Shown here: positions 7,019-29,087 of the stretch, one piece after another
Numbering within the stretch: the first letter of the stretch is position 1
Layout of the letters: every line of letters begins with the position of its first letter
DNA from: a virus
IMG/VR virus record: IMGVR_UViG_3300027963_000040
Reading direction: 5' to 3' (one strand)
Length of the DNA stretch: 64,000 nt
The notes under the pieces: model-generated
Database searches by the model: none
What the model was told of the DNA's origin: nothing
What the model saw: only the letters and a program-made list of their open reading frames with translations
Position numbers and translations under genes: made by a program

Positions 7019-7025
7019 CTTGATT

Positions 7026-7241
7026 TTATTTAGTCGAAATACGCGACTTTTTTTTCGGTTCAACAAAATATTTTTCAAGCATGAATGCTGGAGTCCAGCC
7101 ATCAAACCCATACCCACGATTGAAATTGGTCTTAGCAACTTGAGCATCTTGAACCGTGAGATAAGTTCCAATGACTTGTTCAGTTCGAGTTTCTAGTAGA
7201 TCCCAAGCCTCACCGCTCTTCATAATCTTGTAATTCATCAT
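7026..7241 (-). CDS. Small conserved T4-like hypothetical protein
   Basis: Coupled to gp41; NRGYGFDGWTPAF motif. Confidence 0.65.
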   Translation of the reverse strand: MMNYKIMKSGEAWDLLETRTEQVIGTYLTVQDAQVAKTNFNRGYGFDGWTPAFMLEKYFVEPKKKSRISTK

Positions 7242-8647
7242 GCAAATCCTTCAAAATCTTTCTTACCAAACTTAGACTTCTTTTTATAGAAATCGCTATC
7301 ACGTTCGCCGAAGTCAGTTTTGTCCATTACCGGTCGATCGTCAACCAACCCTTCCTGAGCATCCTGTTCAACATCGAACAATTTCATCTTAGACCGATCG
7401 ATACCAATAACAAACCTACGATACGATGCAGGATCGTTGTATCGATTCTTCAGCTGCTTGACCATAATCTGACCGAGACCTTCTAGTTCCTCGGACGTAA
7501 TAAGAGCAAACATGAAGTCAGCCGTCGCCGGAAGACCAAACGACTCGGAAGTATCTTCAAGACCCACGTCGCTGTTACCGAAACCAGAACGAGTGGTCTG
7601 GGTTGCAGAAACGATTGGAACATTGAACTCAACTGCCAAGCCACGAAGCTCCTCAGCAATCGCCTTCACATACATGTAGGAGTTGACGTTGTTGCCGTAC
7701 TTCATTCTAGACGAAGCGCAGATGTTCAGATAGTCGATGTAGATTATCTCTGGGCTAAAGTTCTTTTTCAGCTTCAACTCATTGATCAGGTGACGGAAGT
7801 TAGCTGAACCAGCTGCAGCTGTAGGATACTCCTTGATGATCAACTTACCAGTCGTCTTGTTCTTTACGCGTTCAAGCTTCCGGTCATAGGTTTCCTTGTT
7901 CATCTCACAGAGCTCATCCATGCTAACATTCATGAGATTAGCGTCAATACGCTCGGCGATGCGTTCCTCAGCCATTTCCATAGTGATATACAGAACGTTC
8001 TTGCCATCAAGCAGATTGCCAGCCGCGCAGTGACACATGAACAAAGACTTACCCACACCCGTTCCCGCGAGCGCGATGTTTAGTGTCTTGTTCGGCAGAC
8101 CGCCCTTAGTGATACGGTTGAAGTAGTCTAGGTTGAATGGAACCTTAGATTCCTTGCGGTGATAAAACTCGTAGCGAGAGTCAGCATCATCAAGGAAGTT
8201 GTGACCGATGTTTGTATCAAAACTAATTCCCAAAGCATCAGAAAGGATCTGAGGAATGCTACCCTTATCCTTCTTCTGATCCTTGTTATCTAGAATCTGA
8301 ATGGATTGCATGATCGCGTTATAGACCGAACGTTCCTGAACGAACTTCTCGGTCTTATCAACAATCCACTCAAGCTCGGTTTTAGGGTCGTAGTCTAGAA
8401 CCTCTATGTTACTGACGATAGTCTTGACCTGATCATCGTTGATCCCATTCATACTAACGAGATCGATAGCGAGAGCTTCCTTGGTTGGAAAGCGATTATA
8501 CTTCAGTACATAACCTTCAATGAGCTCGAAAAGAACCTTATCATCACGGTCTTGAAAATGCTCCTTCTTTAGGAATGGGATAACCTTTCTACCATAGTCC
8601 TCACGAAAGACTAGGTTACCGAATATGACTTGTTCAAAACTGCTCAA
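7238..8647 (-). CDS. gp41: Replicative DnaB-like helicase gp41
   Basis: LAGTGVGKS Walker A, IYIDYLNI, SATQTTR, SESFGLPATAD. Confidence 0.97.
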   Translation of the reverse strand: MSSFEQVIFGNLVFREDYGRKVIPFLKKEHFQDRDDKVLFELIEGYVLKYNRFPTKEALAIDLVSMNGINDDQVKTIVSNIEVLDYDPKTELEWIVDKTEKFVQERSVYNAIMQSIQILDNKDQKKDKGSIPQILSDALGISFDTNIGHNFLDDADSRYEFYHRKESKVPFNLDYFNRITKGGLPNKTLNIALAGTGVGKSLFMCHCAAGNLLDGKNVLYITMEMAEERIAERIDANLMNVSMDELCEMNKETYDRKLERVKNKTTGKLIIKEYPTAAAGSANFRHLINELKLKKNFSPEIIYIDYLNICASSRMKYGNNVNSYMYVKAIAEELRGLAVEFNVPIVSATQTTRSGFGNSDVGLEDTSESFGLPATADFMFALITSEELEGLGQIMVKQLKNRYNDPASYRRFVIGIDRSKMKLFDVEQDAQEGLVDDRPVMDKTDFGERDSDFYKKKSKFGKKDFEGFA

Positions 8648-19404: not shown

Positions 19405-19492
19405 TGGCGGAGCGACTGGGAGTCGAACCCAGTCTACGCTTACGCGTAGTACAGATTAGCAATCTGCTGCATTACCGTCCTGCCCTCGCTCC
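19405..19492 (-). tRNA. tRNA-Ser(GCT)
   Basis: Cloverleaf with long variable arm, CCA. Confidence 0.9.
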
Positions 19493-19499
19493 GTACTCT

Positions 19500-19615
19500 G
19501 CATTCTATACACCCTGTGGGGAAGCCCATTGCGCTTATCGAGGTAAGTGTGCCCACATTAGCGAAAATTCCCCTCTGTTCTTTTCGCGAGGTCTCTCCGA
19601 GAGGTTCTAGAATCT
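19500..19615 (-). ncRNA. Candidate structured RNA between tRNAs
   Basis: Closing ATTCTA/TAGAAT stem with three internal hairpins. Confidence 0.45.
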
Positions 19616-19624
19616 CGGATAACT

Positions 19625-19698
19625 TGGCGCTTCGTAGGGGAATCGAACCCCTGCTATCCGCTGGACAGGCGAACGTCCTACCATTAAACGAACGAAGC
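19625..19698 (-). tRNA. tRNA-Asp(GTC)
   Basis: Cloverleaf, CCA. Confidence 0.88.
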
Positions 19699-19703
19699 AA
19701 ACT

Positions 19704-19777
19704 TGGAGGCGCATACGGGTATCGATCCCGTCTCCCTGGGTTGAGAACCCAGTATTCTCCCAATAAACTAATGCGCC
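19704..19777 (-). tRNA. tRNA-Glu(CTC)
   Basis: Cloverleaf, CCA. Confidence 0.85.
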
Positions 19778-19781
19778 AATT

Positions 19782-19859
19782 TGGTACCGCAGACGGGACT
19801 CGAACCCGCATTGCACAGATTGAAAATCTGGGTTCCTAGTCCAATTAGAAGACTGCGGC
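19782..19859 (-). tRNA. tRNA-Glu(TTC)
   Basis: Cloverleaf, CCA. Confidence 0.88.
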
Positions 19860-19941
19860 AAAGCTTTCAACTCATCATATACGTAGTATACCGTGTTTTT
19901 GTAAAAAAGTCAAGGAGTTTTTTAAGTGATGGATAAAAAAA

Positions 19942-20017
19942 TGGTGGAGACAGACGGGATCGAACCGACGACATTTAGCTTGCAAAGCTAACGCTCTACC
20001 AACTGAGCTATGTCCCC
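19942..20017 (-). tRNA. tRNA-Ala(TGC)
   Basis: Cloverleaf, G3:U70, CCA. Confidence 0.92.
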
Positions 20018-20018
20018 A

Positions 20019-20094
20019 TGGGGTGATAGACGGATCTTGAAACCGCAACATCTGGCTCCACAAACCAGCGCTCTGCCTTTGAGCTACTACCACC
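20019..20094 (-). tRNA. tRNA-His(GTG) with encoded G-1:C73
   Basis: Cloverleaf, CCA. Confidence 0.85.
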
Positions 20095-20100
20095 GTAAAC

Positions 20101-20177
20101 TGGTGCGCATGGAGGGACTTGAACCCCCAGAACCTGGTTTCTAAGACCAGTACGTATGCCAATTCCGTCACACGCGC
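20101..20177 (-). tRNA. tRNA-Leu(TAG), short variable arm
   Basis: Cloverleaf, CCA. Confidence 0.85.
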
Positions 20178-20184
20178 GTAAGAA

Positions 20185-20302
20185 GTCGGATTGCAGCGGA
20201 GGTGGTTCCTAGTCTCGAGCCATATGCCACTACGTCACTTTAATCGCCCAAACTCTAGCGAACTGCAATCCTAGCATGACGTTTTGGTTATTCGTCACGC
20301 GT
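20185..20302 (-). ncRNA. Candidate structured RNA between tRNAs
   Basis: GCGTGACG/CGTCATGC hairpin, then a GGATTGCAG/CTGCAATCC-closed junction. Confidence 0.45.
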
Positions 20303-20305
20303 TCT

Positions 20306-20382
20306 TGGCGTTGCGTAAGAGATTCGAACTCCTAACCCTCAGCTTCGTAGGCTGATGCTCTATCCAGTTGAGCTAACACAAC
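20306..20382 (-). tRNA. tRNA-Arg(ACG)
   Basis: Cloverleaf, CCA. Confidence 0.88.
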
Positions 20383-20390
20383 GTAAAACT

Positions 20391-20464
20391 TGGTTGCCCT
20401 TCATGGATTCGAACCACAACAAACGGAGTCAGAGTCCGCTGTACTACCGTTATACGAAAGGGCA
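20391..20464 (-). tRNA. tRNA-Gln(CTG)
   Basis: Cloverleaf, CCA. Confidence 0.88.
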
Positions 20465-20483
20465 AAAAACCTATTTAGTCAAA

Positions 20484-20557
20484 TGGATGCCCGAGCTGGA
20501 TTCGAACCAACGTATACTGAACCAAAATCAGCAGTCCTACCATTAGACGATCAGGCA
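20484..20557 (-). tRNA. tRNA-Gln(TTG)
   Basis: Cloverleaf, CCA. Confidence 0.85.
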
Positions 20558-20563
20558 TTAAGA

Positions 20564-20639
20564 TGGTGCCATTCCTTGGTTCCGCCCCAAGTCCTCGTGC
20601 TCTTCAGGCACACGCTTCTACTAAGTTAGCTTGAATGGC
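20564..20639 (-). tRNA. tRNA-Phe(GAA)
   Basis: Cloverleaf with non-canonical T-loop GGCGGAA, CCA. Confidence 0.8.
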
Positions 20640-20642
20640 AAA

Positions 20643-20717
20643 TGGTACCTGAGGACGGGATTGAACCGCCGACCGTCTCCGTGTAAAGGAGCTGCGCTAC
20701 CGCTGCGCCACTCAGGC
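20643..20717 (-). tRNA. tRNA-Val(TAC)
   Basis: Cloverleaf, CCA. Confidence 0.88.
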
Positions 20718-20903
20718 TTAATCTTCTTCATCCTCAAACGGAACGAAATCAACATAATCAGTCAGAAAATGATATGCTGCTTGTTGCGCAGCTTCTGGCG
20801 TATAATATATACAATCTTCGGAATATGAATTTTCACTTCCTTCGAATTCCCGAAACTGGACCTGCCAAGCACTTTCGGTCTCTATAATCTTAGCGGTTCT
20901 CAC
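20718..20903 (-). CDS. Hypothetical acidic protein
   Basis: GTG start, AAGGG SD, TTGACA promoter upstream. Confidence 0.55.
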   Translation of the reverse strand: MRTAKIIETESAWQVQFREFEGSENSYSEDCIYYTPEAAQQAAYHFLTDYVDFVPFEDEED

Positions 20904-20967
20904 GTTGAATCCCTTATCCCTATAAATTCATTATATACCATTATGGGAAGAATGTCAATAGGTTTTT

Positions 20968-21567
20968 TTATCTAGAAGTGATTTTATTACCAGGCTTCCC
21001 GAGCATCAATTTAGTATGCCACTCTCCGCCGATCTTACGCTGGTAGAAGTGATCTTTGTATTCCGGATGACGAACAATTTCTGGATCGTCTTCGGGGGGC
21101 TTGCGAATTTCATCATCTCTATCTAGATGATGGTGCACTTCATGATAAGGTACAACATGTTTCTTTAACTCTTCTGCTCCCAAATGTTTCTTGATGAAAG
21201 ATAGACTCTTAGAAGACTTCTCTCCGTATGCGCGACCAGTCCTAAGATCGTCAGACATAATATCAGAAGCACCACGCTTTCCGTGTTCAGTGCCATCGGT
21301 AGCAATCGCAACTGCTTTACGACCACCCTTGTCTTTATACATGGCTGCAGCAACAACTTTACCTTGATGCTTCTTAAGCTTCCACATAGGGATGTTCTTA
21401 ATCATATCATCCTTGTCTCTGAATCCAGAACCATGGATGCCGCCAACGGAGGCATATGATTTATCTAGCAAAGACTTGACCTCATCAGCATACTGTTGTT
21501 TTTTAGGGTCATCATGAAGTAGATTTACGAACTTCTCGTTTAGGATATATTGTCTGAATGAAAGCAT
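20968..21567 (-). CDS. Putative internal head protein with capsid-targeting sequence
   Basis: MLSFRQYILNE N-terminus; GAGG SD; TAATAAATA upstream. Confidence 0.65.
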   Translation of the reverse strand: MLSFRQYILNEKFVNLLHDDPKKQQYADEVKSLLDKSYASVGGIHGSGFRDKDDMIKNIPMWKLKKHQGKVVAAAMYKDKGGRKAVAIATDGTEHGKRGASDIMSDDLRTGRAYGEKSSKSLSFIKKHLGAEELKKHVVPYHEVHHHLDRDDEIRKPPEDDPEIVRHPEYKDHFYQRKIGGEWHTKLMLGKPGNKITSR

Positions 21568-21610
21568 AACTAACCTCTTTTTTGATTATTTATTATTATT
21601 CAGATTTAGA

Positions 21611-21687
<77 letters not shown>

Positions 21688-21858
21688 TTACTTGTCTTTA
21701 GTCTTTTCCTCGAATTCCTTAATTCGAGAACTGAAATATTGAAGAACTATCCCATGCGCTAGAGCACCCATCTTCAGCTGCATCGTTTGAGAATCCAGGT
21801 GATTGCTAACCTCGTCCTCAAACGCAGCCTTCTTTAGTACGTCGATAGAATAGCTCAT
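21688..21858 (-). CDS. Hypothetical 56-aa protein
   Basis: AGGAG SD; MSYSIDVLKKAAFEDEV... Confidence 0.55.
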   Translation of the reverse strand: MSYSIDVLKKAAFEDEVSNHLDSQTMQLKMGALAHGIVLQYFSSRIKEFEEKTKDK

Positions 21859-21876
21859 TCTAGTCTCCTAAAAAGA

Positions 21877-21969
21877 TGGAGGAAGAGGTGGGATTCGAAC
21901 CCACGGTAGAACTCCCGCCCTACGTCAGTTTTCAAGACTGATGACTTAATCCATCTCGCCCACTCTTCC
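21877..21969 (-). tRNA. tRNA-Ser(TGA)
   Basis: Cloverleaf with long variable arm, CCA. Confidence 0.9.
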
Positions 21970-21971
21970 AA

Positions 21972-22290
21972 TTTTGTCGGTTGATTCTGTTTCGAGGCTC
22001 AACCGTAAGCCCAAGAGATTACGCCGCTAGGCGAGTCTCAACTGCAAAGTTATCGTTTGCATTTGTAGTTTCGAACTGATTGAGGGTCGTATCTTACCCA
22101 TTGCCTACTTCAACCCTTACCGTCGCCAGTCGATCCTGTTTCGTCCCCGTCAAAAACACACTGTTACACTCACTTCTTGGAGTAAGAACCGATGCTATAA
22201 AAGCAAGGGTCCCCAATGTGCTTTTGGTGGAGACGCACGGTACTGCCCCGTGGTCCTGACAAACCTATTTGATTGCTATCAACAGCAACT
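21972..22290 (-). ncRNA. ssrA: Permuted two-piece tmRNA (alphaproteobacterial type), tag ANDNFAVETRLAA
   Basis: Acceptor piece ends GCGTCTCCACCA (22225) with a GGCAGTA T-loop; ~76-nt intervening segment; coding piece starts GGGGACG (22148) giving G3:U70; tag frame 22060-22019; TATAAATA at 22294-22301. Confidence 0.92.
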
Positions 22291-22332
22291 TCTTATTTAT
22301 ACCCTAGTTTGAAGGAAAAGTCAAGGATTATT

Positions 22333-22632
22333 TCAGACTAGGCTGAATATATCAACATGCTTGTCTTCATCTAAGATAGAATAAACATTTACTCCGGTGT
22401 AGTACCAGAAAGTCAGCTTCATAGCAAACAAAATCTTCTTATGATTTTCGATTGCTCGATTAGAAATCTTAGCAGCTTGATCGCTTATGTTGATCAAGAA
22501 CTCATAACATTCTTCTTCAGCCATCAGATTTTCTTCAAGCTCTTTTATCTGTTTGTAGAGAAGCTTGCAGAAGTTTTTACATTGACGGTTGTCAAACTTC
22601 AATTCACTGAATCTTACGTACGGTTCGGACAT
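22333..22632 (-). CDS. Hypothetical protein
   Basis: Start moved to MSEPY after GAGGAG because the longer ORF overlaps tRNA-Tyr. Confidence 0.55.
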   Translation of the reverse strand: MSEPYVRFSELKFDNRQCKNFCKLLYKQIKELEENLMAEEECYEFLINISDQAAKISNRAIENHKKILFAMKLTFWYYTGVNVYSILDEDKHVDIFSLV

Positions 22633-22672
22633 TTGATTTCTCCTCTCATACGTATTTATTGATTGGTGGGAA

Positions 22673-22762
22673 TGGGTGTGGTCGGAGTCGAACCAACAGT
22701 GTTTACCACATGGGACGCGATTTACAGTCGCGGGATGCACACGCCATAGCATCAACACACCC
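22673..22762 (-). tRNA. tRNA-Tyr(GTA), atypical 5-bp D-stem, no adjacent CCA
   Basis: GGGTGTG/CACACCC acceptor; CGCGA-CTGTAAA-TCGCG anticodon arm; TTCGACT T-loop. Confidence 0.8.
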
Positions 22763-23188
22763 TTACTTATTTTTCCCACACCAAGTGTCGGTTTGGGAAT
22801 GACAGTTTGGACACAAAAATCTTAAGTTAGACTTTTTGTGATTATTACTATTTCCGTCAATGTGATCCAGGTGTAGAACAATTTGTTTTCCGTTCCAATC
22901 CGAGATACCACATTCAACACATTTGTAATCAAAAACTTTCTCTTGCAGCAATTTTTTCTTAACTTTTCCGGTCTGAAAATAAGGATGAAGACCTTCCAAA
23001 ATTTCTTCTAACGGAACTTTTTTTGTTGTATTTCCGCCTATAACAAAACCTAGATCTAACTTTTTACAAAGCCTCCAAACTTGGACAGTTGGAATTTCCA
23101 ATTCAGCTGCCATTTTCCCAAGATGTTTATGTTTTTCGTAGCAAGCTTTTACTTGTTCTTCAGTGATTTGTTTGTGCTTTTGTATCAT
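22763..23188 (-). CDS. Free-standing HNH homing endonuclease
   Basis: CVEC...LHLDHIDGNSNNHKKSNLRFLCPNCHSQT; own late promoter 23207-23214. Confidence 0.9.
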   Translation of the reverse strand: MIQKHKQITEEQVKACYEKHKHLGKMAAELEIPTVQVWRLCKKLDLGFVIGGNTTKKVPLEEILEGLHPYFQTGKVKKKLLQEKVFDYKCVECGISDWNGKQIVLHLDHIDGNSNNHKKSNLRFLCPNCHSQTDTWCGKNK

Positions 23189-23221
23189 GATCGTTCTCCT
23201 TTGATCTATTTATACAAAAGC

Positions 23222-23265
23222 GGATTTCAAATCCAGTGCCCGTCCGCCGTCCGAGCAGCTTCCCC
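23222..23265 (-). pseudogene. 5' half of a tRNA-like gene (anticodon TGA) interrupted by the HNH cassette
   Basis: GGGAAGCT-GCTCG/CGGGC D-arm-CTGGA TTTGAAA TCC, then a break; matching TTCCCACCA remnant at 22664-22672. Confidence 0.55.
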
Positions 23266-23271
23266 GAAGTA

Positions 23272-23343
23272 TGGAGGCGCTAGTTGGTAACGATCCAACA
23301 CAAGTCGACTTATGAGATCGACCGGAACACCTGTTCTAGCGCC
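23272..23343 (-). tRNA. Atypical tRNA with CAT anticodon (Met/Ile2)
   Basis: GGCGCTA/TAGCGCC, tiny D-arm, 6-bp anticodon stem, ATCGTTA T-loop, CCA. Confidence 0.7.
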
Positions 23344-23347
23344 ATAG

Positions 23348-23420
23348 TGGTAACAGAGGGTTGAATCGAACAACCGTGGTCTAGGTTATGAGCCTAGATG
23401 GGATACCAATCCTCTCTGCT
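23348..23420 (-). tRNA. Atypical tRNA with CAT anticodon (Ile2/Met)
   Basis: AGCAGAG/CTCTGTT, tiny D-arm, 6-bp anticodon stem, CCA. Confidence 0.75.
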
Positions 23421-23424
23421 ATAA

Positions 23425-23498
23425 TGGAGCGGGATAGGGGAATCGAACCCCTGTCCTCAGCTTGGAAGGCTGTGATAATACCATTATACTAATCCCGC
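23425..23498 (-). tRNA. tRNA-Gly(TCC)
   Basis: Cloverleaf, U73, CCA. Confidence 0.9.
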
Positions 23499-24497
23499 AT
23501 TCTTGATTTTTTGATCAAGAAAATTGATTTTTTCCGAATAAGTCCCTGAACCATTCTGATCTGATAAGTTGGCTAGTTCCATCAACATCAGATCTTTGTG
23601 CATCCGTTCATCATAACTCGGTTCGTTATTTATAATCTTGTTATACCTATCGCGAAGAGTGCAAAACTCGTAAGCCAGCTTTTCGGAATATTCGCCGATC
23701 ATACCTCTTACAACTTCACGACTTATTTGACTCGAATTGTTGTAGTTGAAAAACTCTGTACCGTATACAGAATGAAACAGCCCTGCTCTACAGACATCCT
23801 CCGATCCTTTCAACACCTCTAATCTTAGCATAGTGTTGAAAAGATGTTCGAAGAATGTACGCTTAGAGTGAGGTATATTGACCGCAAGTTCTTTGATAAA
23901 CTCAACTAACTCGCTGTTAAAATTTGGATCAAGAGTCTTGAACACTAATACCGTTCTCAACGTAGGACACATCCTAGAAAGAGGTCTTGCCGCATGCAAC
24001 TTGTTTGAATCAAAAACCAACAGCCTACCGAACTTTGGTAGAATTGAACTCTCGATCTCTCTGTTATCATCATATATCACTGTTTCACCAGCCCAATCAA
24101 TGTCCCAGGATTCATTCAGGTAGAGTATGGCAGTCTCTGACATAGAGTCGTCGCCAAACTTCTTTTTAATCCAAGAATCATCATAGTGAGCATAAGCATC
24201 AGTGCCGTAAGTGTAACCGTTTATATACACTCGAAGCAAAGATCTTTGACCTATAACACCACAAATGCTATTCCATATTTGTTTAAGCTCTTTGTGGTTG
24301 TTAATGTAAGGCATGTCAGCATGGTCGTATGGTTCAATCTTACTGTTGTTCAGTATGTTATTGTTCCAGTGTCCAAAATCCCCTTTCAGGTTAACATTGG
24401 ACTTCCAACCAAACTTTAGACCATTATCAACGTAACGTCTAGTGATCGTCTTTAGTAGCTCTGGGGCTTGTAACGTTACTACGGTTGTGTTTTTCAT
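23484..24497 (-). CDS. 2OG-Fe(II) oxygenase fused to a C-terminal HD-like (DUF6817-like) domain
   Basis: AHYDD...W..DWAGET...LHAAR...LRTVLVFK; C-terminal HSKRTFFEHL...AGLFHSVYGT. Confidence 0.8.
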   Translation of the reverse strand: MKNTTVVTLQAPELLKTITRRYVDNGLKFGWKSNVNLKGDFGHWNNNILNNSKIEPYDHADMPYINNHKELKQIWNSICGVIGQRSLLRVYINGYTYGTDAYAHYDDSWIKKKFGDDSMSETAILYLNESWDIDWAGETVIYDDNREIESSILPKFGRLLVFDSNKLHAARPLSRMCPTLRTVLVFKTLDPNFNSELVEFIKELAVNIPHSKRTFFEHLFNTMLRLEVLKGSEDVCRAGLFHSVYGTEFFNYNNSSQISREVVRGMIGEYSEKLAYEFCTLRDRYNKIINNEPSYDERMHKDLMLMELANLSDQNGSGTYSEKINFLDQKIKNAGLV

Positions 24498-24526
24498 AAG
24501 TTATTCACCCCAGTTATACTAAAAAA

Positions 24527-24624
24527 TGGTACGAGCGATAGGAGCGTATCAGCTGCAACCATAATCTCTGGATGCCTCGTCTTGATCCTGTATAGCTCAA
24601 TGCGACTCCTAACAGCTATACAAG
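24527..24624 (-). ncRNA. Candidate ACCA-terminated, pseudoknotted non-tRNA RNA
   Basis: CTTGTATAGCT/AGCTATACAGG stem; loop TAGGAG complementary to downstream CTCCTA; ACGAG/CTCGT stem followed by ACCA. Confidence 0.5.
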
Positions 24625-24630
24625 TTACTT

Positions 24631-24706
24631 TGGTGCCGGTTGGAGGAATCGAACTCCCGACCTTCTCATTACAAGTGAGTTGCTCTACCAACTGAGCTAA
24701 ACCGGC
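24631..24706 (-). tRNA. tRNA-Thr(TGT)
   Basis: Cloverleaf, CCA. Confidence 0.92.
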
Positions 24707-24714
24707 AAACTTTT

Positions 24715-24808
24715 CGGTTTCACTGCACCATCAGCTTTGTAGCACACCCGCTCACGCAACTAAATCGTGCCTTGGTGTCGTCTAACGCAGTCGGACGACC
24801 GAAACCGG
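24715..24808 (-). ncRNA. Candidate structured RNA between tRNAs
   Basis: CGGTTTC/GAAACCG closing stem, GTCGTC/GACGAC, CACCA/TGGTG, possible ACTGCG/TGCAGT pseudoknot. Confidence 0.5.
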
Positions 24809-24811
24809 TAA

Positions 24812-24887
24812 TGGTGCTTCCTGATGGTCCCGACCCATCGACCTTTCGGTTATCAACCGAATGCTCTACCAGCTGAGCTAAGGAAGC
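24812..24887 (-). tRNA. tRNA-Ile(GAT)
   Basis: Cloverleaf with non-canonical T-loop, CCA. Confidence 0.85.
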
Positions 24888-24893
24888 AAAAAA

Positions 24894-24969
24894 TGGCTGG
24901 CTAGGCAGGACTCGAACCTGCGACCCGGTGATTAACAGTCACCTGCTCTACCAACTGAGCTACTAACCA
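24894..24969 (-). tRNA. tRNA-Asn(GTT)
   Basis: Cloverleaf, CCA. Confidence 0.92.
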
Positions 24970-24975
24970 AAAAAC

Positions 24976-25050
24976 TGGAGGACCCTAGTGGAATCGAACC
25001 ACTGTAGCAGGTTTTGCAGACCTGCGCCTAAGCCACTCGACCAAGGATCC
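24976..25050 (-). tRNA. tRNA-Cys(GCA)
   Basis: Cloverleaf, U73, CCA. Confidence 0.88.
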
Positions 25051-25051
25051 G

Positions 25052-25126
25052 TGGTGAGCCGGGAGAATTTCGAAATCTCGACCCAGGGATTAAGAGTCCC
25101 TTGCTCTGCCTCTGAGCTACCAGCCC
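25052..25126 (-). tRNA. tRNA-Lys(CTT)
   Basis: Cloverleaf, CCA; TATAAATA at 25136-25143 heads this tRNA run. Confidence 0.88.
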
Positions 25127-25153
25127 ACGGTATCTTATTTATACATCAAATTG

Positions 25154-25408
25154 TCAAACAGCAGAAGAAAGAAACTTACGCAACCTTACGCTTGCGAAGC
25201 GCGGTACACTGTAGTAACGGACGATGGTACCCTTAGAGTTGATACGAGTGTTACGCTCAATCACAACACCATCGTTACGTAGCCGATAGACCATATCGTA
25301 AGGATTAGTCACGCGGAAGCGCGAAGCAATCTGACGAGCGGTCAGCTGGGTGCCTTCGATAAAAGCAGCATGAAGACGATCCAGCTTAGAAACATTCGTA
25401 CTTGTCAT
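25154..25408 (-). CDS. Small winged-HTH-like protein
   Basis: G.QLTARQIASRFRVTNP...V..LR..G pattern. Confidence 0.65.
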   Translation of the reverse strand: MTSTNVSKLDRLHAAFIEGTQLTARQIASRFRVTNPYDMVYRLRNDGVVIERNTRINSKGTIVRYYSVPRFASVRLRKFLSSAV

Positions 25409-25489
25409 AATCTATTTCCTTTCAGGTTTGCAAACTCATTCAACTCAGTCATTATAGCTTATTTTGCAGAAAAGTCAAGCACTTTTTTT

Positions 25490-25771
25490 TCACCTCACAC
25501 GCCAATTTTTCTTAGTAGATTCGGCAACTTTCACTGCCTCATTTTTATCAAAATTGGCATGGTGTTCCCAAAACTTCATTTTTCGCTCACAAACCACGAA
25601 TTCTTTTTGGGCTTGAAGCTTTTCTACAGTAGTACCATTGTTCAAGAAAAAAGTTAGCATTAGGCTATTAGCATAATGCCGCGCCCAATTAGCGACAGCA
25701 TTTTGCTCATGATAAGGAATAATTGACACGTAAGCACGTTTACCGACGGGATTTTCGTCATAAACTAGCAT
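25490..25771 (-). CDS. Hypothetical early protein
   Basis: Own promoter and SD; EKLQAQKEF..CERKM.FW.HH.NFD. Confidence 0.6.
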   Translation of the reverse strand: MLVYDENPVGKRAYVSIIPYHEQNAVANWARHYANSLMLTFFLNNGTTVEKLQAQKEFVVCERKMKFWEHHANFDKNEAVKVAESTKKNWRVR

Positions 25772-25839
25772 TTCATCGCCCTTTCATCATTACCTTATCA
25801 TCATAGCCTAAAAGCGAAAAAAAGTCAAGAACTTTTTTC

Positions 25840-26025
25840 TCACTTATAAAGGATGTCTACGAGACGACCATCTTCGTCGACGACCCGAATATCGTATCCC
25901 GGATAGCATGCCTTCGCTCCTTCCATCTCGATAAGAATCTTTTGCGGTCCACTAGAAGCACTCAGGGTGGTGCAGGTGCGCCAGCCAGAGTTGTCACGAA
26001 ACTGAACGTAGTAGTCTTGCATCAA
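25840..26025 (-). CDS. Hypothetical protein
   Basis: AAGGAG SD; RVVDEDGRLVDIL. Confidence 0.6.
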   Translation of the reverse strand: MMQDYYVQFRDNSGWRTCTTLSASSGPQKILIEMEGAKACYPGYDIRVVDEDGRLVDILYK

Positions 26026-26207
26026 TGATCTCCTTGATTTAGTAGGAACACTTCGAAGTTTTTGAGAAGGTTCAGGATACTTCTACCCTCAACATTGAAG
26101 CCACCATTGTATTCGGGATTTTTTTCTACAAGAGCGATATGAAAACCGTATCGAACCCTAGCGCCGTTGTAGAGAAGATCTTTGTAGTTCGAAAACGTAA
26201 GTTGCAT
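26022..26207 (-). CDS. Hypothetical protein
   Basis: AAGGAG SD. Confidence 0.55.
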   Translation of the reverse strand: MQLTFSNYKDLLYNGARVRYGFHIALVEKNPEYNGGFNVEGRSILNLLKNFEVFLLNQGDH

Positions 26208-26232
26208 CTCAAAACTCCTTCTAAGAAATTGA

Positions 26233-26327
26233 GAACGAATCAGAGGACCGGGTGGGATTTGAACCCACGTTATAGAGATTAAAAGTCTCCTGTTTGGCCA
26301 CTAAACTACCGGTCCTCTGATTCGTTC
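26233..26327 (-). tRNA. tRNA-Lys(TTT)-like RNA with acceptor stem extended to 19 bp, no CCA
   Basis: Core cloverleaf 26244-26315 inside a perfect GAACGAATCAGAGGACCGG inverted repeat. Confidence 0.75.
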
Positions 26328-26403
26328 AACTCATCATATAGGTAATATACCGTGTTTTCATAAAAAAGTCAAGGAGTTTTTTCATTAACATTTTTTTATT
26401 TTT

Positions 26404-26478
26404 TGGCGAGGGTGGAGAGATTCGAACTCCCACTCCAGGGTTTTGGAGACCCGGCGACTACCGTTATCTTACACCGAC
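26404..26478 (-). tRNA. tRNA-Trp(CCA) with two acceptor-stem mismatches
   Basis: GTCGGTG/CACCCTC acceptor; other arms intact; G73, CCA. Confidence 0.75.
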
Positions 26479-26508
26479 AAAAAAAGAGGCGGAAACTAGT
26501 CCGCCTCC
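26479..26508 (-). terminator. Rho-independent terminator after the Ro60-like gene
   Basis: GAGGCGGA-CTAGTT-TCCGCCTC plus T7. Confidence 0.8.
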
Positions 26509-26519
26509 GGAGGAACTAT

Positions 26520-27926
26520 TTAGGCATAACGATCGACCATAAGAGTCTTCATCATAACGCCAACCGGAGTCAGGTTCTCCATATCACCAGACAGGACTGC
26601 CTTTAGAATGGATGGGCTGAAACCAGAAACCAGAGCAACTCCCCGTTCGTTAAACTTCACAGGCACATTATCCCTAGCGTTTAGATTCCAGAACACAACG
26701 TTCGGCATCTGGTAACCAGCTTCCTCATACTTGTTACGGATCATCTCAATAGCAGAGTCGTCTTGCTTAACGCAAGCATCGAACTGCATATCAGACATAA
26801 TCAGCAGAGTCTGAGGCATTTCCTCCTGAGGAACCTTACCCTTAAGCGCGACATCAAGAATCTTGTTGAACGCAGCGTGAAGATTGGTGTTCATTCCCCA
26901 CTTAGAGGTTACCATCTGTTGCACCTTCTGTAGGATGTCACCCTTCAGATTAAGCAGCTGAGGAGATTCAGAGAAAGTCAGGAACGTGTCCTTGAACTTA
27001 CCCTTGTTCTTATCAGCACAGTAAAGCCCAAGGCTAACAGCAACGTCCATAGCGGTAGTCTTACTACCACCTATGGCGGTTACCATAGAACCAGACACGT
27101 CAACCAGCGGAAGAACGTTGGCTTCGCCGATATAGTTCGGCAGAGCCTCCCACTGAGCAACTACAACATCGAGCTCCGTGTTATCGAGAGACGGTAATCC
27201 TAAAAGGTAGTTAGAAACTCCCTTCAGCACGTCGTAAGGATAGACAGCGCCAGCGTTAACCTTGACGGTCTTATCACCCTTGACCAGCTTCTCAGCCCAC
27301 TCCTTGTATTTCGGAGTGTTACGATTGAATGCCTTCTTGTAACGAGAAGCTGCAAGAGAAGGAACGTGGGAGAAGTTGATACCATCCCAATCCTTGGCGC
27401 ACATCTGAGTCTCAACAACCTTAGTCCGATTGACAAGAAGCTTACGGTACTGCTTCGGAGACAGCTGTAGAGCAGCGCGCAGCTTTACTGCGACCGGACC
27501 CTTACGTGGCATCCACTTAGCACACAGACCGTTGCCATCGATAAGAGCGGTGGCGATCTTACGAATAATGTACTCCTGGATATCAGCGTCAACTCCATCC
27601 TCAAGAAACACCAGCAGGTCGTCCCAGCGACCCAGTTCTGGAGTCTTGTCAATCAGATGCCGATTCACAGTGTGCTTCATAATCTTACGGAAGATCTCGC
27701 GCTCGCCCGCACCCTCGCGCACGTCGCGCGCCCAGAGAGCGATACGAGTTGCGATTTCTGCATCTTCAACGAAAGCTGCGGTGAACGCAGGAATCGGATC
27801 CTGTCCACGCATAGCTCCGATCTTGAAAAATAGATCGACGCAAGCAGAAGCTGTAGATGCTCGTGTCTTCATACCATTCTCGGTACGAGCTTCCTGGTTG
27901 ATAACTGCATTAGCGAAAGTATTCAT
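26520..27926 (-). CDS. Ro60/TROVE-like helical plus vWA protein (DUF2828-like)
   Basis: RTENG..STASACVDLFF, WARDVREGAGER, GRWDDL, AKWMPR, VVETQMC, VPSLA; vWA MIDAS DVSGSM, W.MNTN, MSDMQFD, VFWNL, LVSGFSP. Start set at MNTFA after GGAG. Confidence 0.85.
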   Translation of the reverse strand: MNTFANAVINQEARTENGMKTRASTASACVDLFFKIGAMRGQDPIPAFTAAFVEDAEIATRIALWARDVREGAGEREIFRKIMKHTVNRHLIDKTPELGRWDDLLVFLEDGVDADIQEYIIRKIATALIDGNGLCAKWMPRKGPVAVKLRAALQLSPKQYRKLLVNRTKVVETQMCAKDWDGINFSHVPSLAASRYKKAFNRNTPKYKEWAEKLVKGDKTVKVNAGAVYPYDVLKGVSNYLLGLPSLDNTELDVVVAQWEALPNYIGEANVLPLVDVSGSMVTAIGGSKTTAMDVAVSLGLYCADKNKGKFKDTFLTFSESPQLLNLKGDILQKVQQMVTSKWGMNTNLHAAFNKILDVALKGKVPQEEMPQTLLIMSDMQFDACVKQDDSAIEMIRNKYEEAGYQMPNVVFWNLNARDNVPVKFNERGVALVSGFSPSILKAVLSGDMENLTPVGVMMKTLMVDRYA

Positions 27927-27944
27927 TTTATTCTCCATGATGTT

Positions 27945-27999
27945 ACAGGCTGAACTTTTGGCTTTTTCGAAGAGCTTTGTTAGATGCTGAACTCAACCT
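27945..27999 (-). ncRNA. Y-like array unit 4
   Basis: AGGTTGA-GTTCAGCA...TCAGCCT-GT. Confidence 0.65.
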
Positions 28000-28006
28000 A
28001 AAATAG

Positions 28007-28123
28007 ACAGGATCGTTTTTGCTTTGACGGTTGCTCTACCATTGAGCTACATCAAGTGGTGCTTGATGATGGGATTCGAACCCATAACCAACTGTTTATG
28101 CGAATGATTGCAGAACAGATCCT
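28007..28123 (-). ncRNA. Y-like array unit 3 with a circularly permuted tRNA-like domain (YrlA-like)
   Basis: AGGATC-TGTTCTGCA; T-arm ATGGG TTCGAAT CCCAT; closed acceptor CATCAAG-CACCA-CTTGATG; D-arm TAGCTCAATGGTAGAGC; ends GATCCT-GT. Confidence 0.75.
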
Positions 28124-28130
28124 AAAATAA

Positions 28131-28252
28131 ACAGAGTGGCGCCTACTTCCTTTTTATCCTTGAGAAATCGAAAAACAAGTTGTCAGGTTCGCCGAAGCTT
28201 GCCGACTGTTCCGGAGGCACTTTAGTGCCGAAGGTGTTGCTGTATCCACTCT
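28131..28252 (-). ncRNA. Y-like array unit 2
   Basis: AGAGTGG-ATACAGCA...CCACTCT-GT with a multi-hairpin interior. Confidence 0.65.
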
Positions 28253-28260
28253 AAAACTAA

Positions 28261-28322
28261 TCGGGATTGTCTTGACCGCTAAGTCACAATGTTTAGCGAG
28301 GTTGTTTGCTGAATCAATCCCT
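28261..28322 (-). ncRNA. Y-like array unit 1
   Basis: AGGGATTG-ATTCAGCA...CAATCCC-GA. Confidence 0.65.
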
Positions 28323-28342
28323 AAACTCAATCTTATATAGTC

Positions 28343-28372
28343 ATCATACCCTAGATTTTCGATTTAGTCAAG
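28343..28372 (-). promoter_or_regulatory. Early sigma70-type promoter upstream of the RNA array and Ro60-like gene
   Basis: TTGACT-17 nt-TATGAT. Confidence 0.75.
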
Positions 28373-28391
28373 GAGTATTTTTGACTTTTTT

Positions 28392-28468
28392 TGGTACTCC
28401 CTGTCAGATTCGAACTGACAACACACTGAGCTTAAATCAGATGCCTCTTCCAATTGGGCTAAGGGAGC
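28392..28468 (-). tRNA. tRNA-Leu(TAA), short variable arm
   Basis: Cloverleaf, CCA; 5' part overlapped by the HNH ORF end. Confidence 0.85.
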
Positions 28469-29087
28469 AATATCTTAACTTGTTGACTCTATCGTAGTTA
28501 CCGCCCTTCGGCGTTAATCCGACGTTCAACAAGACTTGACGAATGGTAAGACCCTTTTCTAGTTCTGTGAGGATTTCTTCGTCGGAAACTTTAATCTTAC
28601 CAGTATTTATGTTTTTGCCTCTATAAAACTTAGTTTTAGCATGACAGTTAGGGCATAACAGTAACAAGTTTTCTTTTACGTTGTTCCTGTTATTTCCGTC
28701 TTTATGTTCTAGTTCCAGCGGAATAGGTTCACATAACCATTCTGTGAGATCACAACTTTCACAACGATGCCCTCGTTCTTTAATAAGAACTTTCTTATGC
28801 GAACCTTTACCGTCATAAGAAAAGTCTGCGTTACTTTTTTCTTTATTCCAACTCATACGAAGTTTTGATTCTTTTGGAAGAGAAGCGTAAATCAATTTAG
28901 CGTTTCTTTTACCAGAAGAATTGGCTTCTTTCAGCCCTCTGCTATTTTTCAGTCTGTTAGCTTCACATTGATTTGATGATTCGGAACAAGATAGTTTCCC
29001 GGACTTGTTCCGATATTTTGCAACAAAACCACATCCGTATGAACATAGTTCTGTCGTTATTACGCTCTCTGAAATCATTTTAGGCAT
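28437..29087 (-). CDS. Free-standing HNH homing endonuclease
   Basis: CSYGCG N-terminus; CESC...LELEHKDGNNRNNVKENLLLLCPNCHAKT; late promoter 29114-29121. Confidence 0.9.
   Translation of the reverse strand: MPKMISESVITTELCSYGCGFVAKYRNKSGKLSCSESSNQCEANRLKNSRGLKEANSSGKRNAKLIYASLPKESKLRMSWNKEKSNADFSYDGKGSHKKVLIKERGHRCESCDLTEWLCEPIPLELEHKDGNNRNNVKENLLLLCPNCHAKTKFYRGKNINTGKIKVSDEEILTELEKGLTIRQVLLNVGLTPKGGNYDRVNKLRYCSLSPIGRGI

What the first reader, a model, noticed from the sequence alone, without database searches (positions are those of the whole stretch)
26520..28375. Ro60/TROVE-like vWA protein preceded by an array of four modular Y-like RNAs
Seen: an early-type promoter (28343-28372) is followed by four units, each preceded by TTT(T). 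Each has the layout AG-stem-(A/T)C(A/T)GCA-variable interior-complementary stem-G(T/A): AGGGATTG.ATTCAGCA/CAATCCC, AGAGTGG.ATACAGCA/CCACTCT, AGGATC.TGTTCTGCA/GATCCT and AGGTTGA.GTTCAGCA/TCAGCCT. The stems differ in sequence but all stay paired, and the interiors are unrelated (units 55-122 nt). A helical plus vWA (DVSGSM) gene and a terminator follow immediately. Known: Ro60/Rsr (TROVE plus vWA) binds the terminal stem of Y RNAs, whose other end recruits effectors such as PNPase, and bacterial Y RNA genes lie next to rsr. Inference: this divergent DUF2828-like protein binds the conserved stem/CAGCA handle of each processed unit, giving one scaffold several interchangeable RNA adaptors. Possible roles are RNA repair, decoying tRNA-targeting defences or redirecting nucleases. 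The handle is not the canonical Y RNA GGUCCGA/bulged-C motif, so this may be an undescribed RNA class.
Basis: partly seen in the sequence, partly recalled or inferred. Interest (0 to 1): 0.92.

Follow-up and report, generated by a model that had tools for sequence, protein, structure and literature searches.

The report
Phage Ro60-like protein with partner-RNA array
A large uncultured phage carries four small RNA genes that share one conserved "handle" just ahead of a gene for a protein predicted to fold like the RNA-binding ring Ro60, and I found this pairing in hundreds of phages but in no paper or RNA catalogue.

Summary
On the minus strand lie one promoter, four head-to-tail units, a 468-aa gene and a terminator. 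Each unit has a terminal stem, then UUCNGCA(A), a variable interior, the complementary stem and G(U/A).

The protein is Pfam DUF2828+DUF7788. Its model (pLDDT 89.8) matches Ro60 over its whole length (Z 21.4 to 1yvp; the ten best chains are all Ro60/TROVE).

The same kind of array lies upstream of 70 of 72 related IMG/VR loci: 280 units on the gene strand against 11 opposite, with 97 different stems that stay paired. A CAGCAA handle also flanks distant homologues in Listeria, Staphylococcus, Enterococcus, Bacillus, Campylobacter, Mycobacterium, Klebsiella and Felix O1-type phages.

Unit 3 carries a permuted tRNA mimic like YrlA. No Rfam family or paper I found covers the handle. The nearest look-alike is the Dictyostelium Class I RNA, below threshold.

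I confirmed that Bas63 gp130, a published Ro60-like counter to the Ppl defence, belongs to this family, and found four unannotated units in its tRNA array.

Most likely these are Y-RNA-like partner RNAs of a divergent Ro60. Expression, binding and function remain untested. This scan has reported the same system many times on other DNA.

The parts
28343..28371 (-). Sigma-70-like promoter (TTGACT, 17 nt, TATGAT) that drives the array and the gene
   Evidence: Consensus scan, 10 of 12 matches. The same hexamers recur at the neighbouring tRNA-Lys promoter, 26372..26344.
28261..28322 (-). Unit 1 (62 nt): handle plus a CGCUAA/UUAGCG hairpin interior
   Evidence: Sequence and fold. R1 model 37.8 bits, but this unit was in the training set. 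Units of the same type occur in L001, L002 and L006.
28131..28252 (-). Unit 2 (122 nt): handle (UACAGCA) plus a large structured interior that ends in a UUUCGAUUUC-loop hairpin and AAAAAGGAAGUAG
   Evidence: Found by the strict unit finder. Most of 35 units in related loci share the 3' hairpin and the AAAAAGUAG element. The R1 model did not find it.
28007..28123 (-). Unit 3 (117 nt): handle (UUCUGCA, 6-bp stem) plus a circularly permuted tRNA mimic (T arm, loop-closed acceptor-like stem, D arm) at 28092-28030
   Evidence: Rfam YrlA RF02553, model positions 24-84 of 114, 38.8 bits, E 4.4e-7 in a 521-nt search, below the gathering score of 69. R1 model 22.2 bits, E 0.0025, not in the training set. 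Folding z-score -2.6.
27945..27999 (-). Unit 4 (55 nt): minimal unit with the handle and a small GCU/AGC hairpin; it ends 18 nt before the start codon
   Evidence: R1 model 49.3 bits, in the training set. A unit starts 70 to 85 nt upstream of the start codon (-70 to -85) in most related loci.
26520..27926 (-). Gene for a 468-aa Ro60-fold protein: a HEAT-repeat ring plus a vWA domain with an intact MIDAS site (Pfam DUF2828 + DUF7788)
   Evidence: Pfam PF25043 5.4e-52 and PF11443 3.1e-23. AlphaFold2 model pLDDT 89.8, pTM 0.89. Foldseek: the 13 best chains are all Ro60/TROVE, E 7e-10 to 3e-6. VIA-align Z 21.4, 405 residues aligned, rmsd 3.8 to 1yvp_A. D276, S278, S280, T347 and D379 are invariant in 68 homologues.
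26485..26508 (-). Intrinsic terminator that closes the operon
   Evidence: 9-bp stem (6 G-C pairs), 6-nt loop, T run.

Best explanation
This is a phage operon for a ribonucleoprotein of the Ro60/Y-RNA kind. One promoter transcribes four structured RNA units and then the mRNA of a divergent Ro60-fold ring protein of the DUF2828/DUF7788 family.

Inferred steps: host RNases cut the U-rich spacers and release each unit as a small RNA whose 5' and 3' ends pair in a 6-7 bp helix. The protein binds the shared handle, that is, the terminal helix with its conserved G-C and U-A pairs plus the single-stranded UUCNGCA(A) on the 5' strand. This would resemble the way Ro60 binds the terminal stem and conserved 5'-strand motif of Y RNAs.

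The variable interior is then the working end. In U3 it is a YrlA-like permuted tRNA mimic. In relatives it is a whole tRNA body, an anticodon-arm-like hairpin or some other fold. One protein scaffold would thus be loaded with several interchangeable RNA adaptors.

The most likely use, stated with lower confidence, is during infection. The particles would present tRNA-like surfaces to tRNA-directed host enzymes such as nucleases, repair or decay enzymes, or would shield or triage the phage's own abundant tRNAs. That places the system in phage counter-defence or RNA quality control. Binding to the last unit, 18 nt from the start codon, could also feed back on the protein's own translation.

Shown here: the anatomy, the Ro60 fold, the conserved pairing of gene and RNA, and stem covariation. 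Inferred: processing, binding and function.
For: Fold: Z 21.4 over 405 residues to Xenopus Ro60. The ten best chains are all Ro60/TROVE, and the next hits are isolated vWA domains at Z 9.9 or less. The MIDAS residues are invariant.

Linkage: strict units number 280 on the gene strand against 11 on the opposite strand in 81 loci. Density is 5.6 per kb in the 250 nt before the gene against 0.2 per kb or less elsewhere (0.02-0.28), apart from a tail that falls from 4.5 to 0.4 per kb between 250 and 1500 nt upstream; 70 of 72 loci have a unit within 600 nt upstream.

Structure: when 205 distinct 5' handles are found without using any pairing information, 82% have the exact complement of their own variable stem downstream, against 10% when stems are swapped between handles. 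There are 97 distinct stems, and 5 of 7 helix pairs change on both sides.

Breadth: in 11 distant phage loci (Felixounavirus, Listeria, Campylobacter, Mycobacterium, Staphylococcus, Enterococcus, Bacillus, Klebsiella, Lak and others) there are 29 stem+CAGCA(A/U) units on the gene strand against 4 opposite, with 3.8 expected from shuffles. They lie upstream of the gene, downstream of it, or between tRNA genes.

Y-RNA likeness: the U3 core matches YrlA. Full-length sub-threshold YrlA hits fall on units of Klebsiella phage KP2025 and mycobacteriophage Wyatt2.

Context: the gene sits in tRNA clusters and near RNA ligases (RtcB in Listeria AG20; RNA ligase in Serratia BF).

Experiment in the literature: Bas63 gp130 is described as Ro60-like and counters the Ppl defence (PMC11482910). 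I verified that bas63_0130 is a homologue (44% identity, E 4e-95) and that four handle units lie in its tRNA array.

Precedent: TROVE-type Ro60 with adjacent Y-like RNAs is known in phages (PMC4201824; PMC12135203).
Against: There is no expression, processing or binding evidence for this or any family member.

The handle differs from every known Ro60 ligand motif (GGUCCGA, GNCGAA, CGAA).

Bas63 gp130 alone, expressed from a plasmid or from T7, which carries none of Bas63's handle RNAs, sufficed against Ppl. At least that activity therefore needs no phage RNA.

Two homologue loci, Vibrio nt-1 and Serratia BF, show no convincing units within 2-2.5 kb.

Folding energies of U1, U2 and U4 do not differ from shuffles.

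The alignment used for pair counts was chosen for pairing, so its 100% pairing is by construction; the unbiased test is.
Confidence: 0.7

Rival explanations
1. The units are cis-acting operator sites in the 5' leader of the gene's own mRNA. The protein, or another factor, would bind the repeated handle only to regulate translation or stability, and no free RNAs would be made.
For: In this window there is one promoter before U1 and one terminator after the gene. U4 ends 18 nt from the start codon. A unit starts 70 to 85 nt upstream of the start codon (-70 to -85) in most related loci.
Against: In mycobacteriophage Wyatt2, Staphylococcus phage Ph12, Klebsiella KP2025, EC6 and Bas63 the units lie downstream of the gene or between tRNA genes, not in its leader. 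Arrays of up to 8 units with tRNA-like bodies are more than an operator needs. Some arrays hold internal promoters.
Confidence: 0.1
2. The handle is a processing or stability signal of phage tRNA operons, recognised by a host or phage RNase or a modification enzyme. The Ro-like protein would be merely a neighbour in the same tRNA-centred gene neighbourhood and would not bind the handle.
For: The units are embedded in tRNA clusters and separated by U-rich spacers. Bas63 gp130 works without phage RNAs against Ppl.
Against: Within 64 kb that hold 24 tRNA genes, units occur only next to the DUF2828 gene. The pairing persists across phages of six or more bacterial phyla with different gene orders. 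The layout (terminal stem, single-stranded motif, effector module) is that of Y RNAs, and the protein has the fold of their binding partner.
Confidence: 0.12
3. The tRNA-like units are circularly permuted or split tRNA precursors. They would be cut at the handle and religated, for example by RtcB, to give functional tRNAs.
For: U3 has a T arm, then a loop-closed acceptor stem whose loop reads CACCA, then a D arm. One relative (L059) has ACCA directly after the 3' acceptor strand. RNA ligase genes lie nearby in some phages.
Against: Most permuted units have no CCA in the acceptor loop and no anticodon loop. The same handle flanks interiors that have nothing tRNA-like: 154 of 224 distinct units. 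The handle is single-stranded CAGCAA next to a plain helix, not a bulge-helix-bulge splice motif.
Confidence: 0.03
4. The units are selfish repeated DNA: miniature elements with terminal inverted repeats that multiply locally.
For: They have terminal inverted repeats and a tandem arrangement. Unit number varies from 1 to 8 between relatives, and units come and go.
Against: There is a strict strand bias relative to one gene (280 against 11). Compensatory changes preserve RNA pairing, including G-U pairs. The conserved motif is asymmetric, on the 5' strand only. The interiors are tRNA-like. In the one complete genome searched (Bas63), 4 of 6 pattern matches lie beside the gene.
Confidence: 0.02

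Closest known systems
Bacterial and phage Ro60 (Rsr, TROVE+vWA) with YrlA/YrlB/Yrn1 Y RNAs (Chen et al. 2014, PMC4201824; Rfam RF02553)
   Same: A ring protein of HEAT repeats plus a vWA domain. The partner RNA genes lie next to it on the same strand. The RNAs close their 5' and 3' ends in a stem, with a conserved single-stranded motif beside it and a second module that mimics tRNA in permuted order (T arm, closed acceptor stem, D arm). There is often more than one RNA per locus.
   Different: The protein matches Pfam DUF2828/DUF7788, not TROVE, and sequence searches do not reach Ro60. The handle is (U)U(A)CAGCAA, not GNCGAA. Arrays reach 8 units. Many interiors are whole tRNA bodies in normal order, anticodon-arm-like hairpins or unrelated folds. 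No unit reaches the YrlA gathering score.
Thermus phage phiLo Ro60 with Yrl1 and Yrl2 (PMC12135203; PDB 9KOP, 9L5Y)
   Same: A phage-encoded Ro60 with two Y-like RNA genes just upstream. It is a structural match to my model (Foldseek E 7e-10; Z 16.8). In vitro it binds the RNAs and host PNPase.
   Different: phiLo Ro60 is a TROVE-family protein whose RNAs carry the CGAA motif. It has two RNAs, not a modular array, and no tRNA-mimic modules are reported.
Bas63 (Escherichia phage JohannRWettstein) gp130, counter of the Ppl defence system (PhageMaP preprint, PMC11482910)
   Same: It belongs to the same protein family: 44% identity, E 4e-95; locus tag bas63_0130, directly upstream of the tRNA array. 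The authors noted its Ro60-like structure and guessed that Y RNAs hide among the tRNA genes.
   Different: The authors did not identify the RNAs. I find four unannotated handle units between the tRNA genes, two of them under small ORFs annotated on the opposite strand. gp130 alone sufficed against Ppl, so the link between the RNAs and that phenotype is open. Here the array precedes the gene instead of following it.
Dictyostelium Class I RNAs (Rfam RF01414; Kjellin et al. 2021, PMC7919456)
   Same: The layout is the same. A 6-bp stem joins the 5' and 3' ends, then comes a conserved single-stranded motif directly after the 5' strand (Rfam consensus CUUACAGCAAU), then a variable interior, an A-rich 3' strand and a two-base 3' tail. 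Stems covary while the motif stays fixed.
   Different: These are eukaryotic, dispersed genes with their own promoter element, and were reported as unique to dictyostelids. Their known direct binder is the RRM protein Rnp1A. Only two Klebsiella-phage units score against RF01414, and both fall below threshold (25.0 and 22.6 bits against 41.5). The window's units, which lack the A before CAGCA, give no hit at all. I could not test whether dictyostelids encode a DUF2828 protein.

Membership tests
Pfam DUF2828 (PF11443) + DUF7788 (PF25043) protein family | Scores above the curated cut-offs for both domains | tested here: met
   PF25043 176.7 bits (cut-off 27.1) and PF11443 82.8 bits (cut-off 29). 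All 120 listed homologues carry both domains.
Ro60 / TROVE proteins | Ring of HEAT-like helical repeats closed by a C-terminal vWA domain (whole-chain fold) | tested here: met
   Model pLDDT 89.8. Z 21.4, 405 residues aligned, model 9-451 against chain 12-537 of 1yvp_A. The ten best chains are all Ro60/TROVE.
Ro60 / TROVE proteins | Sequence membership in Pfam TROVE (PF05731) | tested here: not met
   No TROVE hit at E 0.1 or better. phmmer against PDB finds no Ro60. A family profile gives only E 0.18-0.3 to Ro60/TROVE chains, over the MIDAS stretch.
Ro60 / TROVE proteins | MIDAS motif (DxSxS, T, D) in the vWA domain | tested here: met
   D276, S278, S280, T347 and D379 are invariant in 68 homologues.
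Ro60 / TROVE proteins | Binds Y RNA on the outer surface and RNA 3' ends in the central hole | not testable with these tools
   This needs EMSA, RIP or a structure of the complex.
Y RNA / YrlA (Rfam RF02553) | 5' and 3' ends pair in a terminal stem | tested here: met
   6-7 bp in all four units. Covariation in relatives.
Y RNA / YrlA (Rfam RF02553) | Encoded next to the Ro gene on the same strand | tested here: met
Y RNA / YrlA (Rfam RF02553) | Conserved Ro-binding motif (GGUCCGA with bulged C; GNCGAAN0-1G in bacteria) | tested here: not met
   The motif position holds UUCAGCA, UACAGCA or UUCUGCA instead. The YrlA model aligns only its positions 24-84 to U3, not the handle.
Y RNA / YrlA (Rfam RF02553) | tRNA-like domain in permuted order (T arm, closed acceptor stem, D arm) | tested here: met
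   Present in U3 only: 38.8 bits, E 4.4e-7. U1, U2 and U4 lack it.
Y RNA / YrlA (Rfam RF02553) | Reaches the Rfam gathering score (69 bits) | tested here: not met
   The best score is 38.8 bits in the window and 40.1 bits in related phages. None reaches it in 20 loci at gathering threshold.
Dictyostelium Class I RNA (Rfam RF01414) | Short terminal stem plus an 11-nt motif (consensus CUUACAGCAAU) directly 3' of the 5' strand | tested here: inconclusive
   The layout is shared. The window has UUCAGCAA (no A before the C), while EC6, Bas63, Staphylococcus and Enterococcus phages have UUACAGCAA.
Dictyostelium Class I RNA (Rfam RF01414) | Reaches the Rfam gathering score (41.5 bits) | tested here: not met
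   No hit on the window units at E 10 or better. 25.0 and 22.6 bits on two Klebsiella-phage units.

The most novel reading that the evidence does not exclude
Phages carry a cassette-based RNP counter-defence platform. One Ro60-like ring is loaded, through a universal CAGCAA handle, with interchangeable RNAs that display tRNA bodies or anticodon-arm mimics. These would act as decoys or adaptors against tRNA-targeting host immunity, and the repertoire would evolve by cassette gain, loss and swap. The same handle family would extend to the long-unexplained Class I RNAs of Dictyostelium, making those Y-RNA-like partners of a Ro-type protein.
Probability: 0.2. Interest if true: 0.92.

Novelty: new variant of a known kind. 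Interest (0 to 1): 0.78.

Why it matters
Ro60/Y-RNA particles are known from animals, from about 5% of bacteria and from a few phages. Their RNA partners have always been recognised by one motif next to a TROVE gene. Here a second, very large branch appears. The protein family has 6,294 clusters at 50% identity and occurs in 711 deposited phage genomes. It has its own handle and arrays of up to eight modular RNAs, and it sits in tRNA clusters of phages that infect at least six bacterial phyla.

This gives a concrete answer to the suggestion in the Bas63 study that Y RNAs hide in the tRNA array of a phage whose Ro-like gene defeats a defence system. It also names the exact RNAs to delete or mutate. 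It flags dozens of unannotated RNA genes, and some spurious small ORFs, in well-studied phages such as Felix O1 relatives, Listeria Pecentumvirus phages (AG20) and cluster L mycobacteriophages. Finally, it offers a testable lead on Dictyostelium Class I RNAs, whose partner and mechanism have been open since 2004.

Tried and rejected
- Nucleotide searches of the locus and of the array against 50,697 phage records found nothing, in near and distant mode.
- phmmer of the protein against PDB gave no Ro60. A family profile gave only weak Ro60/TROVE hits, so the fold had to be predicted.
- Model R1, trained on the window's clade, is too clade-specific. It found only one weak hit in five distant phage loci and missed U2 in the window.
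- I tested extending the terminal helix by three pairs. Position 13/84 pairs in only 28 of 71 rows, and the two U-R pairs never covary, so the extension is not supported.
- The permuted-tRNA-precursor idea is rejected because CCA and anticodon loops are not conserved.
- The anticodon-loop reading of the short interiors is suggestive only. 99 of 224 units have a hairpin of 4 bp or more with a 7-nt YU-NNN-R loop, against 17 in shuffles, but that count includes T loops, and the commonest loops (CUUGUAA, CUUGAAA, CUUUUAA) might be one motif rather than many anticodons.
No whole genome is held for the window.
- Not held: the Annual Review on bacterial Ro60, the supplements of Chen 2014 and Avesson 2011.
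- Literature searches for DUF2828, for Ro-like phage proteins and for ACAGCAA found no description of these RNAs.
Full report
**Anatomy.** The feature lies on the minus strand of a tRNA-rich region. ARAGORN finds 24 tRNA genes plus a tmRNA between 19405 and 28468. The window belongs to a large myovirus with T4-like replication and structural genes: family B DNA polymerase, tail sheath, portal and major head protein.

After tRNA-Leu (28468-28392) comes a promoter, TTGACT-17-TATGAT, at 28371..28343. Four head-to-tail units follow:
- U1, 28322-28261
- U2, 28252-28131
- U3, 28123-28007
- U4, 27999-27945

Next come GGAG, an ATG at 27926, a 468-codon frame ending at 26520, and a terminator at 26508..26485.

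Every unit follows a T run and opens with (A)G. It has a 6-7 bp terminal helix, one or two unpaired bases, then U(U/A)C(A/U)GCA. It closes with the complementary strand followed by G(U/A).

**Chance.** A deliberately loose definition is: TNCNGCA, a stem of 7 bp or more, and a G(T/A) tail. It gives about 4 hits per shuffled window with both strands counted. Three or four such units in tandem within 380 nt are therefore not chance. Single-sequence folding does not help: only U3 folds better than its shuffles. The argument has to be comparative.

**The protein.** Pfam gives DUF7788 (5.4e-52) and DUF2828 (3.1e-23), with no TROVE hit. Sequence searches do not reach Ro60. A 68-member profile touches Ro60/TROVE chains only at E about 0.2, over the MIDAS stretch.

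An AlphaFold2 model built on that alignment is confident (pLDDT 89.8, pTM 0.89). By Foldseek its 13 best PDB matches are all Ro60/TROVE: phiLo phage Ro60 at E 7e-10, then Xenopus, human and Deinococcus Ro60. VIA-align gives Z 21.4 with 405 aligned residues spanning nearly the whole chain of Xenopus Ro60. The first non-Ro hit is an isolated vWA domain at Z 9.9. The MIDAS residues are invariant. The protein therefore has a Ro60 fold but belongs to a sequence family distinct from TROVE.

The family is very large: 6,294 clusters at 50% identity and 711 deposited phage genomes by tblastn. In those records it is variously labelled hypothetical, DUF2828, vWFA, RNA-binding or Ro-like protein.

**Close relatives.** IMG/VR holds 262 relatives, and I kept 80 loci at 59-91% identity. 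Their upstream regions show the same kind of array.

A strict unit finder gives 280 units on the gene strand and 11 on the other strand in 519 kb. Density is 5.6 per kb in the last 250 nt before the gene and 4.5 per kb in the 250 nt before that, then falls with distance from 1.3 to 0.4 per kb between 500 and 1500 nt upstream. Everywhere else it is 0.02-0.28 per kb. 70 of 72 loci with enough upstream DNA have a unit within 600 nt, and arrays hold 1 to 8 units. There are 224 distinct units with 97 distinct 5' stems and lengths of 51-412 nt.

That finder requires pairing, so I repeated the test blind. I located 205 distinct 5' handles by sequence alone. Of these, 82% have the exact Watson-Crick complement of their own five variable stem bases downstream, against 10% when stems are swapped between handles.

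In an alignment of 71 short units, five of the seven helix pairs change on both sides, while G2-C and U5-A never vary. The rows were chosen for pairing, so only the variety of pairs is informative there.

The clade consensus is UUUU|AGG(A/U)UNN-N-UUCAGCAA ... A-rich ... NNA(A/U)CCU|GU-U(G/A)A.

**Covariance model.** Model R1, built from these units, finds only U4, U1 and U3 in the 64-kb window. U4 and U1 were training members. U3 was not and scores E 0.0025. Nothing else scores better than E 2.6.

**Interiors.** U3 matches positions 24-84 of Rfam YrlA: T arm, loop-closed acceptor-like stem, D arm (38.8 bits against a gathering score of 69). Interiors in relatives include:
- permuted tRNA mimics of this kind
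- whole tRNA bodies in normal order without an acceptor stem, which Rfam's tRNA model picks up from about position 8 to 63
- short hairpins with 7-nt loops such as CUUGUAA, CUUGAAA and CUUUUAA that look like anticodon arms
- a U1-type CGCUAA hairpin
- a widespread U2-type body that ends in a UUUCGAUUUC-loop hairpin and AAAAAGUAG

The closest relative (L001, 91% protein identity) has an extra tRNA-body unit between U1 and U2. Its U3 has the same stem but a different interior. Units are therefore gained, lost and re-filled as cassettes.

**Distant relatives.** In 11 annotated phage loci at 26-50% protein identity, a stem followed by (U)(U)ACAGCAA recurs beside the gene:
- three units upstream in Listeria AG20
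- two upstream in Campylobacter CP30A
- three downstream in mycobacteriophage Wyatt2, one with a permuted tRNA mimic
- three downstream in Staphylococcus phage Ph12
- one upstream in Enterococcus VRE9_2
- three upstream in Bacillus Izhevsk
- several downstream in Klebsiella KP2025
- four between the tRNA genes of E. coli phage EC6
- one beside the Lak megaphage gene

The count is 29 on the gene strand against 4 opposite, with 3.8 expected from shuffles. Vibrio nt-1 and Serratia BF show none that convince. Several of these loci also hold RNA ligases: RtcB in AG20 and an RNA ligase next to the gene in BF.

**What is known.** Chen et al. 2014 found YrlA-type RNAs next to TROVE-annotated Ro60 genes in 254 bacteria and 22 phages, recognised by GNCGAA near the 5' end. 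The phiLo study solved a phage TROVE Ro60 and showed binding to two upstream CGAA-bearing RNAs and to host PNPase.

The PhageMaP preprint found that Bas63 gene 130, noted as Ro60-like, counters the Ppl defence. The gene alone rescues T7. The authors guessed that some annotated tRNAs downstream might be Y RNAs.

I located the record (MZ501086) and confirmed three things. First, bas63_0130 is a DUF2828-family homologue of the window's protein (44% identity, E 4e-95). Second, four handle units lie between its tRNA genes, at 82072-82138, about 82239-82300, 82694-82761 and 82781-82906; the last has a permuted tRNA mimic, and two lie under small ORFs annotated on the opposite strand. Third, four of the six genome-wide matches to the handle pattern are these units, with none on the reverse strand.

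No paper in the held library links DUF2828 to RNAs. No Rfam family reaches threshold on any unit.

**A look-alike.** Earlier notes of this scan pointed to Dictyostelium Class I RNAs. I checked this. The Rfam RF01414 consensus is a 6-bp terminal stem, then CUUACAGCAAU, a variable interior, an A-rich 3' strand, the closing stem and UG. Two Klebsiella-phage units align to it end to end at 25.0 and 22.6 bits, below the 41.5 threshold. The window's units give no hit.

The published description matches the phage layout: 42-65 nt, a stem joining the ends, an 11-nt motif beside the 5' strand, covarying stems and a conserved 5' G. This is a resemblance, not membership. Whether dictyostelids have a DUF2828 protein could not be tested here.

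**Mechanism.** Shown: the anatomy, the fold, the linkage and the covariation. Inferred by analogy with Ro60/Y RNA: the transcript is cut in the U-rich spacers, each unit's handle is bound by the ring protein, and the interior acts as the effector end.

Three things point to tRNA-centred conflict or RNA quality control during infection: the tRNA-cluster context, the tRNA and anticodon-arm mimics together with the nearby RNA ligases, and the Bas63 phenotype. However, gp130 acts on Ppl without phage RNAs. The RNAs may therefore broaden or redirect the protein's activity rather than being needed for it.

My confidence by step:
- about 0.95 that these are real structured RNA elements functionally tied to the gene
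- about 0.7 that the protein binds them through the handle
- about 0.3 for a decoy or adaptor role against tRNA-directed defences

**Status.** This scan has reported the same system repeatedly on other DNA. The tests above were run independently on this window.

Noticed in passing
window 21975-22328 (-): Phage-encoded two-piece (circularly permuted) tmRNA: Rfam tmRNA_permuted 117.5 bits and alpha_tmRNA 105.1 bits, ARAGORN tag ANDNFAVETRLAA. The relative L002 has one too, at 7007-7345.
   Followed up: partly
window 19405-28468 (-): There are 24 tRNA genes on one strand, with the Ro-like operon embedded among them. tRNA-Trp (26478-26404) and tRNA-Lys(UUU) (26315-26243) follow the operon's terminator. 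A second copy of the same TTGACT promoter type lies at 26372..26344, between them and just upstream of tRNA-Lys.
   Followed up: partly
window 28392-29087 (-): The 216-aa ORF 29087-28437 overlaps the 5' part of tRNA-Leu(UAA) at 28468-28392. I did not examine it.
   Followed up: no
L098 (Bas63, MZ501086) 82748-83022: The small ORFs bas63_0137 and bas63_0138, annotated on the opposite strand, overlap two handle units (82694-82761 and 82781-82906) and are probably spurious. In Klebsiella phage KP2025 a 'tRNA-Arg' feature of 432 nt runs into the DUF2828 gene.
   Followed up: partly
L083 (Listeria AG20) 5255-6500; L090 (Serratia BF) 319-1578: RNA ligase genes lie close to the Ro-like gene: RtcB ('tRNA splicing ligase') 1.2 kb downstream in AG20, and an RNA ligase about 400 nt upstream in BF. 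BF itself shows no clear handle units.
   Followed up: no
L091 (Klebsiella phage KP2025) 3551-3604 and 3635-3688: Two short units align end to end with Rfam RF01414 (Dictyostelium Class I RNA) at 25.0 and 22.6 bits, below threshold. Neighbouring units at 3715-3830 and 3865-3967 give full-length sub-threshold YrlA hits.
   Followed up: partly
L001-L080, unit interiors: Many short units carry a 4-5 bp hairpin with a 7-nt loop of anticodon-loop form: CUUGUAA 13, CUUGAAA 13, CUUUUAA 6, CUUAUAA 4 and CUCAUAA 4 distinct units. The same CUUGUAA loop sits in the anticodon position of the whole-tRNA-body units.
   Followed up: partly
W01 (Bas63) 3274-3290 and 3896-3909: Two more matches to AGACC-N(2-6)-CAGCAA lie on the forward strand, far from the tRNA array, at about 3.3-3.9 kb. 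I did not check whether they are units or coding-sequence coincidences.
   Followed up: no
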